This document shows positions 315 to 17,410 of a stretch of DNA of 64,000 bases, in pieces; positions within the stretch are counted from its first letter, which is position 1, and each line of letters starts with the position of its first letter. The position numbers and the translations under genes are program-made. The notes beneath the pieces are model-generated. The model was not told where the DNA came from, searched no databases, and saw only the letters and a list, made by a program, of their open reading frames with translations. The stretch is taken from NCBI RefSeq assembly GCF_056746865.1, contig NZ_CM163382.1; one strand, given 5' to 3'.

Positions 315-926
315 TCATAACGCGGCGCGTAGGGCTTCGCGAATTAATGTTTCACTGCTGGCGTCAGGGCGAGCGATTTTGCTCACCATGCGGCTTGCTT
401 CTTGTGGTTTATAGCCCAGCGCCACCAGCGCGGCAACCGCTTCCTGTTCAGCATCGTCGGTCGCCGGGCTGGCAGGTGATGTGAGTACCAGGTCGGCGGC
501 TGGCGTAAAGAGATCGCCATGCAAACCTTTAAATCGGTCTTTCATTTCAACAATCAAGCGTTCGGCGGTTTTTTTGCCAATACCCGGCAGTTTCACTAGT
601 GCCCCCACTTCTTCACGCTCAACGGCATTAACGAACTGCTGCGCTGACATTCCGGAGAGGATCGCCAGCGCCAACTTCGGGCCGACGCCGTTGGTTTTGA
701 TCAACTCTTTGAACAACGTGCGCTCTTGTTTATTGTTAAAACCGTACAGCAGTTGCGCGTCTTCACGCACCACAAAGTGGGTGAAAACGATCGCTTCCTG
801 ACCCGCTTCAGGGAGTTCATAAAAACAGGTCATCGGCATATGCACTTCATAGCCTACGCCGCCCACTTCAATTAACACCAGCGGGGGTTGTTTTTCAATG
901 ATGATGCCTCTGAGTCTGCCTATCAC
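315..926 (-). CDS. ruvA: Holliday junction DNA-binding protein RuvA (203 aa)
   Basis: ORF track 315..926 (-); protein [15 protein letters not shown]... recognised as RuvA. Confidence 0.96.
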
Positions 927-977
927 ATGACGCTCCTGCGTAATGAATCAAAGATAATGCTGTATGATAAAAAAATG

Positions 978-993
978 CTGGATAGATATCCAG
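978..993. promoter_or_regulatory. LexA (SOS) operator of the ruvAB promoter, palindrome CTGGATAGATATCCAG
   Basis: Perfect 16-bp palindrome CTGG-N8-CCAG about 50 bp upstream of the ruvA start; matches the non-canonical CTGG variant reported for the ruvAB SOS box. Confidence 0.7.
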
Positions 994-1200
994 CGAAGGA
1001 TGAAGAAAACTTGCGAGGCGTCCCGATGATCTGAAAAATGGCGCAGTAGAATTTTTTCTACAGGTTATATTGGAAGCAAATATTTAAATATTACATATTC
1101 AGCGAAGAAATGCGTAATAAAAATACATATTGCGCCTCCTGAAAAAATAAATTTTTTATGCTATTACGTATATTCGTATCTATTTCAATGGAATGACAAT

Positions 1201-1803
1201 GTGAATATTAATTATCCTGCTGAATATGAAATTGGTGATATCGTCTTTACATGTATAGGTGCTGCCTTATTTGGTCAAATATCAGCTGCATCAAATTGCT
1301 GGAGTAATCACGTCGGGATCATTATCGGTCATAACGGTGAAGACTTCATGGTTGCAGAAAGCCGGGTTCCCCTTTCAACCATCACCACGCTATCTCGTTT
1401 TATTAAACGTTCTTCTAATCAACGCTATGCTATAAAGCGATTAGACGCCGGGCTTACAGAACAACAAAAACAACGAATTGTTGAACAGGTTCCCTCCCGG
1501 CTACGCAAACTTTACCACACCGGTTTTAAATACGAATCTTCGCGCCAGTTCTGTTCAAAATTTGTTTTTGATATTTATAAAAAAGCGCTATGTATTCCGG
1601 TGGGTGAAATAGAGACGTTTGGAGAATTGTTAAATAGCAATCCGAATGCAAAACTCACTTTCTGGAAATTCTGGTTCTTAGGTTCTATTCCGTGGGAGCG
1701 TAAAACCGTCACGCCAGCCAGTTTGTGGCATCATCCGGGTTTGGTGTTGATTCATGCGGAGGGAGTGGAAACGCCTCAGCCGGAACTGACCGAGGCGGTA
1801 TAA
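1201..1803 (+). CDS. yebB: YebB, uncharacterised DUF830-type protein (200 aa), GTG start
   Basis: ORF track 1201..1803; visibly AT-rich relative to flanking ruv genes; sits between ruvA and ruvC as in K-12. Confidence 0.85.
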
Positions 1804-1804
1804 C

Positions 1805-2326
1805 TTAACGCAGTCGCCCTCTCGCCAGGTTCAGCCGCGATTCGCTCATCTGCATCGCATTCTGACTGACGTGACAATGGGTAATCGCGATAGCTAACGC
1901 ATCGGCGGCGTCCGCCTGTGGATTAGCGGGCAGTTTCAGCAAGGTGCGGACCATATGCTGCACCTGGCTTTTTTCAGCACTACCAATACCTACCACCGTT
2001 TGCTTTACCTGACGTGCCGCATATTCAAATACCGGCAATTCCTGATTCACCGCCGCCACAATCGCCACGCCGCGTGCCTGCCCCAGTTTCAGGGCTGAGT
2101 CAGCGTTCTTCGCCATAAAGACTTGTTCAATGGCGAAATAATCAGGCTGGAACTGGGTAATGATTTCCGTCACGCCCGCATAGATGAGCTTCAGACGAGA
2201 CGGTAAATCATCCACTTTGGTGCGTATGCATCCGCTACCCAGGTAGGACAATTGCCTGCCTACCTGGCGGATGACGCCATAGCCGGTCACGCGCGAACCC
2301 GGGTCAATGCCGAGAATAATAGCCAT
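1805..2326 (-). CDS. ruvC: Holliday junction resolvase RuvC (173 aa)
   Basis: ORF 1805..2329 begins [18 protein letters not shown]...; second Met taken as start to match the known 173-aa length. Confidence 0.93.
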
Positions 2327-2360
2327 CACGCGTCTCCGTTTTGCTGTTTAGCAGGCCCCA

Positions 2361-3101
2361 TCAGAGAGTCGCTGCAACCTCATCAGAGATTTCACCGTTA
2401 TGGTAGACTTCCTGCACGTCGTCGCAATCTTCCAGCATATCGATCAGACGCATCAGTTTCGGTGCGGTTTCTGCATCCATATCAGCTTTGGTGGACGGGA
2501 TCATGGAAACTTCCGCGCTGTCTGCTTTCAGACCTGCCGCTTCCAGAGCGTCGCGCACTTTACCCATTTCTTCCCATGCAGTGTAGACATCAATTGCGCC
2601 GTCATCATAGGTCACAACGTCTTCAGCACCTGCTTCCAGCGCTGCTTCCATGATGGTGTCTTCATCGCCTTTCTCGAAGGAGATCACGCCTTTTTTGCTG
2701 AACAGATAAGCTACGGAACCATCAGTACCGAGGTTACCGCCACATTTACTGAATGCATGGCGCACTTCAGCAACGGTACGGTTGCGGTTGTCAGACAGAC
2801 ATTCAATCATGATTGCCGTGCCGCCAGGACCGTAACCTTCGTAGATGATGGTTTCCATGTTTGCATCATCATCACCGCCCACACCACGTGCGATTGCGCG
2901 GTTCAGAGTGTCACGGGTCATGTTGTTAGACAATGCTTTATCAATTGCTGCACGCAGACGCGGGTTAGCGTCCGGATCGCCACCGCCCAGCTTAGCCGCG
3001 GTTACCAGCTCACGAATGATTTTAGTGAAGATTTTACCGCGCTTAGCATCCTGCGCAGCTTTACGATGTCTGGTGTTGGCCCATTTACTATGACCTGCCA
3101 T
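2361..3101 (-). CDS. yebC: YebC/PmpR family transcriptional regulator (246 aa)
   Basis: ORF 2361..3101; [27 protein letters not shown]... signature of the YebC family. Confidence 0.95.
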
Positions 3102-5472: not shown

Positions 5473-5781
5473 GAGATATCCCTTAACTTAGCTGCCGGCG
5501 GATGCCCCCTGCTGCGCAGGTGACCAAGTCGCAGCGTTAGCTGTATGTCACAACTGAATGAAAAAAGGCGGCTATTATACTGGAAATTCTGCCGCACCGT
5601 AAGAGCCTGGCCCGCGCTGGAACGCCTCGTTACCACTTTATATCGGGCCTGAAATCAGACTCTACGCCAGTTTGCTATAAAGGTGTTGCCCGAACTCATA
5701 AAAATTAACAAAATTTGTCGTTCCGCCATCGGCTAATCGCATTAAGGTGTGAGGCACGATTTTGTTTTTTCAGGAGTCATT

Positions 5782-6348
5782 ATGCTTGAACTTAATGCTA
5801 AAACCACTGCGCTGGTGGTGATCGATTTACAAGAAGGCATCTTACCTTTTGCCGGTGGTCCACATACTGCCGATGAGGTAGTTAATCGCGCCGGGAAGCT
5901 GGCGGCGAAATTTCGCGCCAGCGGTCAGCCCGTGTTTCTGGTGCGCGTTGGCTGGTCTGCCGATTACGCTGAAGCATTAAAACAGCCGGTCGATGCGCCC
6001 TCACCGGCTAAAGTGTTGCCCGAAAATTGGTGGCAACATCCTGCTGCATTAGGTGCAACCGACAGCGATATCGAAATCATCAAACGTCAATGGGGTGCGT
6101 TTTACGGTACGGATCTGGAGTTGCAATTACGCCGCCGAGGTATCGATACAATAGTGTTATGTGGGATCTCGACCAATATCGGTGTTGAATCCACCGCCCG
6201 CAATGCCTGGGAACTTGGCTTTAATCTGGTGATTGCCGAAGACGCCTGTAGTGCCGCCAGCGCCGAGCAGCACAATAACAGTATCAACCATATCTACCCG
6301 CGCATCGCCCGTGTGCGTAGCGTGGAAGAGATCCTCAACGCGTTATGA
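5782..6348 (+). CDS. yecD: Isochorismatase-family hydrolase YecD (188 aa)
   Basis: ORF 5749..6348; start moved to ATG 5782 preceded by AGGAG; [19 protein letters not shown]... Confidence 0.9.
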
Positions 6349-7163
6349 TTTACATCGGTCTACCGCAATGGTCGCATCCTAAATGGGTGCGGTTGGGGAT
6401 CACCAGCCTTGAAGAGTATGCCCGCCACTTTAACTGCGTGGAGGGCAACACCACGCTTTACGCCCTGCCGAAACCCGAGGTTGTCCTGCGCTGGCGTGAG
6501 CAGACCACAGATGACTTCCGCTTCTGTTTTAAGTTTCCGGCGACCATTTCGCATCAGGCAGCATTACGGCATTGCGATGATTTAGTGACTGAATTTTTGA
6601 CCCGCATGTCACCGTTGGCTCCGCGCATTGGGCAATACTGGCTGCAACTGCCTGCCACATTCGGCCCACGGGAGCTGCCTGCGCTTTGGCATTTTCTCGA
6701 TTCTCTTCCTGGCGAATTTAATTATGGCGTGGAAGTCCGCCATCCACAGTTTTTCGCCAAAGGAGAAGAGGAACAAACGCTTAATCGCGGTTTACATCAG
6801 CGCGGCGTTAATCGGGTGATTTTAGACAGCCGCCCGGTTCATGCAGCACGTCCACACAGTGAAGCTATTCGCGACGCTCAACGAAAAAAACCTAAAGTTC
6901 CGGTACATGCTGTACTGACGGCGACAAATCCGCTGATCCGTTTTATCGGTAGTGATGATATGACGCAAAACCGGGAATTATTTCAGGTCTGGTTACAAAA
7001 ATTAGCGCAGTGGCATCAGACCACTACGCCTTATCTTTTTTTACATACGCCAGACATTGCCCAGGCACCGGAACTGGTACATACCCTGTGGGAAGACTTA
7101 CGTAAAACGCTTCCAGAGATCGGAGCAGTTCCGGCTATTCCACAGCAATCTTCTCTTTTCTGA
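6345..7163 (+). CDS. yecE: DUF72 family protein YecE (272 aa)
   Basis: ORF 6345..7163; 4-nt overlap with the yecD stop (ATGA) suggests translational coupling. Confidence 0.92.
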
Positions 7164-7215
7164 ATTTGCCACCTATCATAGACAGGTGCCATCGGCCATT
7201 TTAAAGGGAGTTTGT

Positions 7216-9363
<2,148 letters not shown>

Positions 9364-16800: not shown

Positions 16801-16921
16801 TGCCATCTAAATGTATTCTGAAAATGGACATGCCATCGTTTTCTCACTGTTGGGTAAGAAGTCAGAAGCGTAATATTCGGCCCCAGGGAAACGATAACGG
16901 TTGAATTTAAGGAATACCGCA

Positions 16922-17410
16922 GTGTTTAAATTTCTTGTATTAACATTAGGCATTATCTCTTGCCAGGTTTACGCAGAAGATACGCTTATAGTAAACGACC
17001 ATGACATTTCAGCCATCAAAGATTGTTGGCAAAAAAATTCAGATGATGATACTGACGTTAACGTGATCAAATCATGCCTGCGACAAGAATACAATCTCGT
17101 CGATGCGCAATTAAATAAAGCCTATGGTGAAGCTTATCGTTATATAGAACAAGTGCCACGCACAGGTGTAAAAAAACCTGATACCGAACAACTTAACTTG
17201 CTTAAAAAATCACAGCGAGCCTGGCTGGATTTTAGGGACAAAGAATGTGAATTAATCCTTTCAAATGAGGACGTTCAGGATTTAAGTGACCCTTATTCTG
17301 AATCAGAATGGCTCTCATGTATGATCATACAGACCAATACGCGAACTCGCCAGTTGCAGCTATACCGTAACTCTGAAGATTTTTATCCAAGCCCTTTGAC
17401 AAGAGGATAA
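16922..17410 (+). CDS. yecT: YecT, DUF1311-type secreted protein (162 aa from GTG 16922; 169 aa if TTG 16901 is used)
   Basis: ORF 16901..17410; N-terminal signal peptide (FKFLVLTLGIISCQVYA); AAGGA 8 nt upstream of GTG 16922; AT-rich. Confidence 0.8.
   Translation: MFKFLVLTLGIISCQVYAEDTLIVNDHDISAIKDCWQKNSDDDTDVNVIKSCLRQEYNLVDAQLNKAYGEAYRYIEQVPRTGVKKPDTEQLNLLKKSQRAWLDFRDKECELILSNEDVQDLSDPYSESEWLSCMIIQTNTRTRQLQLYRNSEDFYPSPLTRG

What the first reader, a model, noticed from the sequence alone, without database searches (positions are those of the whole stretch)
1201..1803. AT-rich gene yebB wedged between ruvA and ruvC
By eye the yebB coding sequence is markedly more AT-rich than the flanking ruvA/ruvC/yebC genes. 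It interrupts what is otherwise a functionally coherent Holliday-junction gene set, and its product (a 200-aa DUF830 protein carrying an HxxxxxxH...QFC arrangement) is poorly characterised. This looks like an old horizontal insertion into the ruv locus. It lies just downstream of the LexA-controlled ruvAB promoter region, so possible damage-linked expression is worth testing.
Basis: partly seen in the sequence, partly recalled or inferred. Interest (0 to 1): 0.35.

Follow-up and report, generated by a model that had tools for sequence, protein, structure and literature searches.

The report
Acquired yebB gene splitting ruv genes
The AT-rich gene between ruvA and ruvC is E. coli yebB, a known but biochemically untested cysteine enzyme that sits on an 809-bp piece of acquired DNA splitting two repair genes that lie side by side in most related bacteria; it is real but ordinary.

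Summary
yebB (1201-1803, + strand) has GC 0.430 and GC3 0.383, against 0.509 and 0.542 for the window's 60 ORFs. It ranks second lowest in GC and second most atypical in codon usage.

The horizontal-insertion reading is supported. In about 60 of 80 Enterobacteriaceae and Erwiniaceae species, ruvC and ruvA lie only 71-127 bp apart. Alignment places an 809-bp insert (996-1804, GC 0.40) between the ruvC stop codon and the ruvAB LexA box (977-994). Only a scattered subset of genera carries yebB there. Other genera carry different genes at the same site, and Proteus, Providencia and Budvicia carry yebB elsewhere, where tested at host-like GC.

The gene is functional and known. It is present in 5425 of 5426 complete E. 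coli genomes, and dN/dS is 0.04-0.1. It is a YebB-family permuted papain-like (NlpC/P60, PF05708) enzyme. The catalytic residues are H37, E53, Y105 and C118; H44 is not conserved. The closest structure is the fatty-acid-binding protein YiiX, so it is probably a cytoplasmic acyl hydrolase or transferase.

The SOS idea is weak. yebB is transcribed divergently from ruvA, and the promoter reported for it (1139-1167) lies about 145 bp from the LexA box.

Interest is low.

The parts
315..926 (-). ruvA (203 aa), flanking core gene
   Evidence: Pfam RuvA_N, HHH_5 and RuvA_C. RefSeq annotation of the same locus.
964..992 (-). ruvAB sigma-70-like promoter (-35 TGGATA at 992-987, -10 TATCAT at 969-964)
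   Evidence: Consensus scan. The -35 overlaps the LexA box.
977..994 (.). LexA (SOS) box palindrome GCTGGATAGATATCCAGC, followed by a T7 run on the - strand. It forms the ruvA-side boundary of the insert.
   Evidence: CTG-N10-CAG match. Terminator-like hairpin. Invariant core in the alignment of 9 loci and present in nearly all ruv loci.
996..1804 (.). Inserted segment (809 bp, GC 0.400). It replaces the ~10-nt spacer (TGACAAATGAG-like) found between the ruvC stop and the LexA box in empty-site species.
   Evidence: Alignment A1 of occupied and empty sites, junction survey, composition.
1065..1130 (-). yobI small ORF (21 codons) inside the acquired spacer. The start codon is ATA in this window and ATG in the RefSeq strain.
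   Evidence: RefSeq annotation of L001, alignment A4, translation.
1139..1167 (+). yebB promoter CTGAAA-17-TATTAC, as reported by RpoD genomic SELEX
   Evidence: PMC3946193. Unique exact match in the window.
1201..1803 (+). yebB CDS (200 aa, GTG start): YebB-family permuted papain-like (NlpC/P60) enzyme. Catalytic residues H37, E53, Y105, C118.
1772..1797 (-). Conserved 10-bp GC-rich hairpin, 7 nt after the ruvC stop and inside the last 11 codons of yebB. Probable terminator for ruvC and/or yebB.
   Evidence: RNAalifold on 9 ruv-site loci, 3 pairs with compensatory changes. MFE -21.5 kcal/mol, z -4.0.
1805..2329 (-). ruvC, flanking core gene. Its stop codon is 1 nt from the yebB stop codon.
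   Evidence: Pfam RuvC at 231 bits, ORF list.
2361..3101 (-). yebC, upstream of ruvC on the same strand
   Evidence: Pfam TACO1/YebC, RefSeq annotation.

Best explanation
The feature is E. coli yebB, carried on a small horizontally acquired islet of 809 bp (996-1804). The islet is wedged into the ~10-nt gap that ancestrally separated the ruvC stop codon from the ruvAB LexA box and promoter. The ruvC|ruvA junction is a variable site in Enterobacteriaceae. Most species are empty there. A scattered set carries yebB, alone or with orphan membrane or lipoprotein genes. Others carry unrelated cargo. No mobility genes, tRNA or terminal repeats are present. The occupied allele therefore most likely spreads, and is lost, by homologous recombination through the highly conserved ruvC and ruvA flanks; this step is inferred. 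The gene itself is maintained by purifying selection and is core in E. coli. Its product is a cytoplasmic member (no signal peptide) of the YaeF/YiiX family of circularly permuted NlpC/P60 papain-like enzymes. It has an intact His37-Glu53-Cys118 triad plus Tyr105. By analogy with YiiX (fatty acid bound in the S1 pocket), PLAAT/LRAT, TseH, Tox-Act1 and RID, it most likely forms an acyl-thioester on Cys118 and then hydrolyses or transfers a fatty-acyl group from a lipid or lipidated substrate; this too is inferred, and the substrate is unknown. It has no demonstrated functional link to Holliday-junction processing. The adjacency to ruv is an accident of where insertions are tolerated.
Against: No integrase, transposase, tRNA or flanking repeats mark the insert, and there are no phage or genuine plasmid copies. 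The transfer mechanism is therefore inferred, not shown. The donor is unidentified: the nearest non-Enterobacterales relatives are at most 51% identical and unnamed. The same ruvC-side junction (stop codons 1 nt apart) in several genera could also fit a single ancient insertion followed by many losses. dS is saturated in most inter-genus comparisons. No enzymatic activity or substrate has been shown for YebB. The hydrophobic S1 pocket was not examined in the model. One transposon mutant with a long lag phase (PMC5996734) is the only phenotype found, and it is anecdotal.
Confidence: 0.8

Rival explanations
1. yebB was present at the ruvC|ruvA site in the common ancestor of Enterobacteriaceae and was lost repeatedly. 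Its AT-richness would then reflect weak expression or relaxed selection rather than foreign origin.
For: The ruvC-side junction (yebB stop 1 nt from ruvC stop) and the embedded hairpin are shared across Escherichia, Pseudocitrobacter, Salmonella, Citrobacter and Kluyvera. ruv-site alleles are deeply diverged, at 65-80% aa identity.
Against: All sampled loci from outside Enterobacteriaceae (Erwiniaceae, Chimaeribacter) are empty. Empty sites across many genera share a homologous ~10-nt spacer plus a perfect 20-nt palindrome, which independent deletions would not regenerate. GC3 lies 16 points below the host in Escherichia but equals the host in Proteus and Providencia. There are at least two different ruvA-side junction types. 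yebB dS is lower than flank dS for some genus pairs. dN/dS of 0.04-0.1 argues against relaxed selection.
Confidence: 0.12
2. yebB is a damage-inducible accessory of the ruv system, co-regulated with ruvAB by LexA through the shared intergenic region.
For: A strong LexA box (977-994) lies in the ruvA-yebB intergenic region. An expression-compendium study predicted yebB as a LexA target (PMC2689187).
Against: The box overlaps the ruvAB -35 and lies about 145 bp upstream of the -35 of the SELEX-reported yebB promoter. In Salmonella, E. albertii and C. amalonaticus another gene separates yebB from the box. Orthologues in Providencia and Proteus and the second Salmonella paralogue have no CTG-N10-CAG upstream, and Budvicia has only a weak match, 8 of 20 to consensus. 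Most ruv loci lack yebB altogether.
Confidence: 0.1
3. yebB is a conflict gene, either a toxin/effector of the Tox-Act1 or TseH type or an anti-phage defence component. This would explain its patchy, islet-like distribution.
For: Structural relatives include the T6SS effector TseH and the MARTX RID domain. In some genera a neighbouring orphan membrane protein recalls the membrane immunity proteins described for Tox-Act1. A Salmonella paralogue sits directly after an RTX/T1SS operon.
Against: There are no PADLOC hits. YebB has no signal peptide or secretion-system fusion. It occurs as a solitary gene in E. coli, Pseudocitrobacter, Proteus, Providencia and Budvicia, with no conserved partner. 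It is fixed in E. coli with low dN/dS rather than fast-evolving. There are no phage or plasmid copies.
Confidence: 0.06

Closest known systems
E. coli YebB (b1862); NCBIfam NF008547 'YebB family permuted papain-like enzyme'
   Same: It is this gene. It scores 403 bits against an equivalog cutoff of 227, is 98% identical to the commonest E. coli cluster, and RefSeq annotates the same locus as yebB.
   Different: Nothing structural differs. This window's allele belongs to a minority E. coli lineage: only about 275 of 5425 genomes are at least 99% identical, and the flanks show the same pattern.
E. coli YiiX (PDB 2if6), YaeF/YiiX-like permuted NlpC/P60 family (Pfam PF05708, MEROPS C92)
   Different: Only 26-28% identical. 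YiiX is exported; the paper's residue numbering includes a leader, and many relatives carry signal peptides. The YebB clade has only 11 residues before the first conserved motif, so it is presumably cytoplasmic. Fatty-acid binding is shown for YiiX only (PMC3142127).
LRAT / PLAAT (HRASLS) phospholipase-acyltransferases, T6SS effectors TseH and Tox-Act1, MARTX RID
   Different: Sequence identity is 12-18%. They belong to different families, with secretion or membrane-anchoring modules that YebB lacks. This is a 'works like' analogy only.
Chromosomal HGT hotspots between conserved core genes (islets without mobility genes)
   Same: Variable cargo sits at one fixed intergenic position flanked by highly conserved core genes. 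There is no integrase or tRNA, and the composition is atypical.
   Different: The islet is very small, one gene in E. coli. The tolerated target is only about 10 nt, squeezed between a stop codon and a LexA box that doubles as a terminator-like hairpin.

Membership tests
YaeF/YiiX-like permuted NlpC/P60 enzymes (Pfam PF05708 Peptidase_C92) | Matches the family HMM above the curated threshold | tested here: met
   157 bits against a gathering score of 27, covering profile positions 3-165 of 166.
YaeF/YiiX-like permuted NlpC/P60 enzymes (Pfam PF05708 Peptidase_C92) | Circularly permuted order of catalytic residues: His, then a polar residue, then Tyr, then Cys | tested here: met
   H37, E53, Y105 and C118 align to YiiX His49, Glu64, Tyr115 and Cys128 (residue roles from PMC3142127).
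YaeF/YiiX-like permuted NlpC/P60 enzymes (Pfam PF05708 Peptidase_C92) | The four catalytic residues are conserved across homologues | tested here: met
H in 64 of 65, E in 63 of 65, Y in 64 of 65 and C in 64 of 65 sequences, down to 27% identity.
YaeF/YiiX-like permuted NlpC/P60 enzymes (Pfam PF05708 Peptidase_C92) | Papain-like alpha+beta fold superposable on solved family members | tested here: met
YaeF/YiiX-like permuted NlpC/P60 enzymes (Pfam PF05708 Peptidase_C92) | Hydrophobic S1 pocket that binds a fatty-acyl chain | not tested
The feature is inferred from the YiiX structure (PMC3142127).
YaeF/YiiX-like permuted NlpC/P60 enzymes (Pfam PF05708 Peptidase_C92) | Thiol-dependent hydrolase or acyltransferase activity | not testable with these tools
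   No biochemical data on YebB was found in the searched literature.
YebB equivalog (NCBIfam NF008547) | Score above the equivalog cutoff over the full length | tested here: met
   403 bits against a cutoff of 227, residues 1-199. The YiiX model scores only 80 bits against 216.
Horizontally acquired islet | Composition and codon usage deviate from the host | tested here: met
   GC 0.40 for the insert against 0.503 for the window. GC3 is 0.383 against 0.542. Codon-usage z is -3.9.
Horizontally acquired islet | Presence/absence among relatives with conserved flanks, and an empty site identifiable | tested here: met
   About 60 of 80 loci are empty with a 71-127 bp gap. The junctions were mapped.
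Horizontally acquired islet | Mobility signatures (integrase or transposase, tRNA target, flanking direct repeats) | tested here: not met
   There are no tRNAs and no convincing terminal repeats. Neighbouring cargo has no recognised domains. There are no phage or true plasmid copies.
LexA (SOS) regulon | LexA box positioned to occlude the gene's own promoter | tested here: not met
   The box at 977-994 overlaps the ruvAB -35. The SELEX-reported yebB promoter is at 1139-1167, about 145 bp away.
LexA (SOS) regulon | LexA box conserved upstream of orthologues | tested here: not met
   A good box is present only where yebB directly abuts the ruvA promoter (E. coli, 'P. vulneris'). None is found in Providencia, Proteus or either Salmonella context, and Budvicia has only a weak CTG-N10-CAG match, 8 of 20 to consensus.
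LexA (SOS) regulon | Damage-inducible, LexA-dependent transcription | not testable with these tools
   Only a computational prediction exists (PMC2689187).
Anti-phage defence or toxin systems | Match to known defence or effector models, or a conserved partner gene | tested here: not met
   There are no PADLOC hits, and no partner is conserved across contexts.

The most novel reading that the evidence does not exclude
YebB could be a cytoplasmic fatty-acyl transferase or deacylase acting on proteins or lipid intermediates, an activity not yet described for a chromosomal housekeeping-type bacterial enzyme of this family. Separately, the ruvC|LexA-box junction could be an actively targeted integration site recognised through the 20-nt palindromic hairpin, rather than merely the only tolerated 10-nt gap. 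If so, acquired cargo would be placed systematically next to an SOS-controlled promoter.
Probability: 0.1. Interest if true: 0.55.

Novelty: already known. Interest (0 to 1): 0.2.

Why it matters
The finding matters little beyond tidy annotation. It documents that the textbook E. coli arrangement ruvC-yebB-ruvAB is a derived state. The arrangement found in most relatives is ruvC followed directly by a LexA-box hairpin and then ruvAB, so E. coli is atypical among its relatives at this locus. It marks yebB and the small ORF yobI as residents of acquired DNA. It corrects the idea that yebB is positioned for SOS control. It also sharpens a testable biochemical hypothesis for a conserved y-gene: a Cys118 thioester and a fatty-acyl substrate. 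None of this would surprise a specialist.

Tried and rejected
1. Searching for yebB on phages gave no match. On plasmids, all 15 hits are chromids, megaplasmids or mislabelled chromosomes of 0.25-4.9 Mb, all predicted non-mobilizable; seven carry yebB itself or its Salmonella orthologue and eight only distant (≤44%) YiiX-type relatives. There is no evidence of a mobile carrier.

2. Repeat, tRNA and Rfam scans of 800-2000 found no transposon ends, no tRNA and no known RNA family.

3. I first read 'P. vulneris' L089 versus L041 and the two C. amalonaticus loci as within-species polymorphism. Flank identities of 83-86% and 90-95% show they are different species or lineages, so I dropped that claim.

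4. I tested whether the E. coli spacer 996-1200 is a remnant of the 228-231-aa membrane-protein gene that sits there in E. albertii, Salmonella and Citrobacter. No similarity was found beyond the two ends.

5. The neighbouring cargo proteins gave no NCBIfam or PADLOC matches.

6. Naming the nearest outgroup proteins through cluster look-up failed, because they are unnamed metagenomic sequences. The donor remains unidentified.

7. I tried to explain the 29 E. coli genomes with 80-95% identical yebB as carriers of E. albertii-like or L003-like alleles. Neither allele occurs in the complete-genome set, so this is unexplained.

8. STM1896 appears in Salmonella motility screens, but I could not establish which islet gene it denotes, so I did not use it.

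9. The second CTG-N10-CAG at 1031-1046 matches the LexA consensus poorly (10 of 20), and 13.7 such matches are expected per window by chance. I treated it as chance.

Full report
**What is at the coordinates.** The window opens with the E. coli gene order ruvB (3' end), ruvA (315-926, -), yebB (1201-1803, +), ruvC (1805-2329, -), yebC (2361-3101, -), nudB and aspS. The 1-kb stretch 900-1900 matches 5425 of 5426 complete E. coli genomes. RefSeq annotates it as ruvA, yobI, yebB and ruvC.

**The compositional observation holds.**
- yebB has GC 0.430 and GC3 0.383. The 60 long ORFs of the window average 0.509 (sd 0.032) and 0.542 (sd 0.058).
- The upstream spacer has GC 0.31.
- yebB's synonymous codon usage is the second most atypical of the 60 ORFs, at z -3.9.
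- The window holds about six other low-GC troughs, so this one is real but not unique.

**The gene interrupts an ancestral arrangement.** I scanned one genome per GTDB species for RuvC relatives and kept the 80 best loci, which come from Enterobacteriaceae, Erwiniaceae and one Chimaeribacter.
- tblastn with RuvA, RuvC and YebB shows that about 60 of the 80 have ruvC and ruvA only 71-127 bp apart.
- yebB lies between them only in Escherichia (E. albertii and an E. coli-like species), two Pseudocitrobacter, Kluyvera georgiana, Superficieibacter and, frameshifted, Klebsiella spallanzanii.
- The seven 1.9-kb inserts in Kosakonia, Phytobacter ursingii and 'Enterobacter' Bisph1 (the three whose ORFs I listed) carry an HTH regulator plus a short-chain dehydrogenase at the same place. 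Intestinirhabdus carries a DUF4034-like lipoprotein there.
- Look-ups of individual YebB proteins add S. enterica subsp. enterica, a C. amalonaticus-complex lineage and a 'Pseudescherichia vulneris' strain as occupied sites.
- Their relatives S. arizonae, another C. amalonaticus lineage and the P. vulneris type strain are empty. Flank identities of 83-95% show these pairs are related lineages, not members of one species.

**Where exactly the insert sits.** I aligned occupied and empty sites and surveyed the junctions.
- In an empty site, the ruvC stop codon is followed by about 10 nt (TGACAAATGAG-like). Next comes a perfect 20-nt palindrome, GGCTGGATATCTATCCAGCC, then a T7 run, then ruvA.
- The palindrome is the ruvAB LexA box (CTG-N10-CAG). 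It also looks like an intrinsic terminator for ruvC.
- In E. coli an 809-bp segment (996-1804, GC 0.400) replaces the 10-nt spacer.
- The yebB stop codon lies 1 nt from the ruvC stop codon. This ruvC-side junction is shared by Escherichia, Salmonella, Citrobacter and Kluyvera, and in Pseudocitrobacter the two stop codons abut directly.
- The ruvA-side junction comes in at least two types. One is shared by E. coli, the E. coli-like species and Pseudocitrobacter; E. albertii matches it only in the altered outer palindrome bases. The other is shared by Salmonella, Citrobacter, Kluyvera, K. spallanzanii, Superficieibacter and Intestinirhabdus.
- The insert has no tRNA, terminal repeats or mobility genes. 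yebB has no phage copies, and the plasmid-collection hits are chromids, megaplasmids or mislabelled chromosomes, all predicted non-mobilizable.

**yebB outside the ruv locus.** The gene sits alone in unrelated contexts.
- In Providencia it lies between a GntR-family aminotransferase-domain regulator gene and an HNH gene.
- In Proteus it lies between VanW and a DyP peroxidase.
- In Budvicia it lies between a Na/Pi transporter and menD.
- S. enterica has a second paralogue directly after an RTX/T1SS operon.
- yebB GC equals local GC in Proteus (0.356 against 0.350) and Providencia (0.375 against 0.388). It is 7-13 points below local GC in Escherichia, Pseudocitrobacter and 'P. vulneris'.
- The YebB tree is star-like. 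ruv-site alleles of different Enterobacteriaceae genera are 65-80% identical, no closer to each other than to Proteus at 70-73%.
- Synonymous divergence is decoupled from the flanks in both directions. K. georgiana versus C. amalonaticus gives 0.46 for yebB against 0.83 and 1.14 for ruvA and ruvC. E. coli versus Pseudocitrobacter gives 1.7 against 1.1.
- Within Escherichia, yebB dS (0.39-0.83) resembles that of the flanks (0.23-0.56), which is consistent with vertical descent since the genus arose.

**My reading of the history.** The empty site is ancestral. The occupied state arose by insertion into the only dispensable 10 nt of the interval. It has since moved between lineages, or been erased, by homologous recombination through the ruvC and ruvA flanks, which are 90-99% conserved at the protein level. 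That last step is an inference. The rival of ancient presence with repeated loss is not excluded, but it fits poorly with the conserved empty-site sequence, the empty loci from outside Enterobacteriaceae and the GC pattern.

**The gene is alive.**
- dN/dS is 0.04-0.1 between species.
- It is intact in 5415 of 5426 complete E. coli genomes, with occasional IS1 disruptions.

**What the protein is.**
- It scores 157 bits on Pfam PF05708 (Peptidase_C92, formerly DUF830). It scores 403 bits on the NCBIfam YebB equivalog, whose cutoff is 227.
- Its only solved sequence relative is E. coli YiiX (2if6, E 8e-18).
- An AlphaFold2 model built on 65 homologues has pLDDT 93.8.
- Weaker structural matches are PLAAT4 (8.7), the T6SS effector TseH (8.4), MARTX RID (5.8) and a PPPDE desumoylase (5.6).
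- The residues defined as catalytic for this family (PMC3142127) are H37, E53, Y105 and C118. They are conserved in 63-64 of 65 sequences.
- The YebB clade has 11 residues before the first conserved GD motif and no signal peptide, whereas many relatives carry one. It is therefore probably cytoplasmic.

**Likely mechanism.** YiiX co-crystallised with a fatty acid in a hydrophobic S1 tunnel. Characterised enzymes with this permuted topology are fatty-acyl hydrolases or transferases. I therefore commit to a mechanism in which Cys118 forms an acyl-thioester and a fatty-acyl group is hydrolysed or transferred. The substrate is unknown. This is an analogy, not a demonstration.

**Regulation.**
- yebB is divergent from ruvA, not downstream of its promoter.
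- The LexA box (977-994) overlaps the ruvAB -35, at 992-987.
- Genomic SELEX reported a separate yebB promoter, CTGAAA-17-TATTAC (PMC3946193). It maps uniquely to 1139-1167, about 145 bp from the box.
- A 2009 network study already predicted yebB as a LexA target from expression compendia and the nearby box (PMC2689187). No experimental test was found.
- In Salmonella, E. albertii and Citrobacter another gene lies between yebB and the box. Orthologues in other contexts have no good LexA box; Budvicia has only a weak match.
- Direct SOS control is therefore unlikely and is not intrinsic to the gene.

**Two small by-products.**
- A 10-bp GC-rich hairpin (1772-1797) lies 7 nt after the ruvC stop, inside the last 11 codons of yebB. 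That part of the protein is low-confidence in the model (mean pLDDT 57 over residues 191-200). The hairpin is conserved in nine ruv-site loci, with compensatory changes at three pairs, and folds with z -4.0. It probably took over the terminator role that the LexA-box hairpin plays directly after ruvC in empty-site species.
- The 21-codon ORF yobI lies inside the acquired spacer. Its ATG is ATA in this window, and the region is diverged in the E. coli-like species.

**Verdict.** The horizontal-insertion reading is well supported, the motif reading is half right, and the SOS reading is weak. The gene and its family are already catalogued, and islets between core genes are a common pattern. Interest is low.

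Noticed in passing
window 1065-1130 (-): The small ORF yobI ('stress response small protein') lies inside the acquired AT-rich spacer. Its start codon is ATA in this window and ATG in a RefSeq strain. The region is partly deleted or diverged in the E. coli-like species L003. This suggests a young, lineage-restricted ORF born in foreign DNA, possibly inactive here.
   Followed up: partly
window 1772-1797: A conserved 10-bp GC-rich hairpin lies 7 nt after the ruvC stop and inside the last 11 codons of yebB. Nine ruv-site loci keep it, with compensatory changes at three pairs, and it folds with z -4. It is a probable terminator embedded in coding sequence.
   Followed up: partly
window 977-994 and empty-site loci (e.g. 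L004 5526-5606): In species without the insert, the ruvAB LexA box is a perfect 20-nt palindrome followed by T7, directly after the ruvC stop. It therefore looks like a dual LexA operator and ruvC terminator. In yebB-occupied sites the outermost palindrome bases differ (CGCTGG..CCAGCA or ATCTGG..CCAGYC).
   Followed up: partly
window 16901-17410 (+): This 169-aa ORF has the lowest GC (0.384, GC3 0.341) and the most atypical codon usage (z -4.9) in the window. It is another candidate acquired gene.
   Followed up: no
window ~12.4-13.6 kb, 32.7-34.5 kb, 40.0-41.6 kb, 42.5-43.5 kb, 49.4-50.5 kb: Further low-GC troughs, with 809-bp windows below 0.42 and a minimum of 0.345 near 40.3 kb.
   Followed up: no
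L090 5001-5579 and L091 3925-4503 (Salmonella enterica): A second YebB-family paralogue (66% identical) sits directly downstream of an RTX-repeat protein, an ABC transporter and a membrane-fusion protein (T1SS). This is suggestive, because related permuted papain-like enzymes acylate or process toxins.
   Followed up: no
L017, L030, L038, L048, L050, L051, L055 (gap ~5523-7445); L044: Other cargo occupies the same ruvC|ruvA site. The three of the seven 1.9-kb Kosakonia-group inserts whose ORFs I listed (L017, L030, L038) carry an HTH regulator plus a short-chain dehydrogenase (GC 0.58), and the other four have the same length and GC. Intestinirhabdus carries a DUF4034-like lipoprotein. The junction is a multi-cargo hotspot.
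   Followed up: partly
L002 6438-7124; L082 4100-4792; L086 4105-4800: An orphan membrane protein of about 230 aa with a Cys-rich C-terminal domain lies beside yebB in E. albertii, S. enterica and C. amalonaticus. It has no NCBIfam or PADLOC match, and the gene caller's precomputed table lists no Pfam family for the Salmonella and Citrobacter copies. It is absent from E. coli.
   Followed up: partly
E. coli genome hits: In 29 complete E. coli genomes yebB is only 80-95% identical to the window, while no genome has ruvC-yebC below 95%. The divergent allele is neither E. albertii-like nor L003-like.
   Followed up: partly
H1 NZ_CM135151.1, H25 NZ_OZ547461.1; L033 861-1469: yebB is disrupted by IS1 in at least two E. 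coli strains and is frameshifted in Klebsiella spallanzanii. Loss is tolerated in some lineages even though the gene is otherwise under purifying selection.
   Followed up: no
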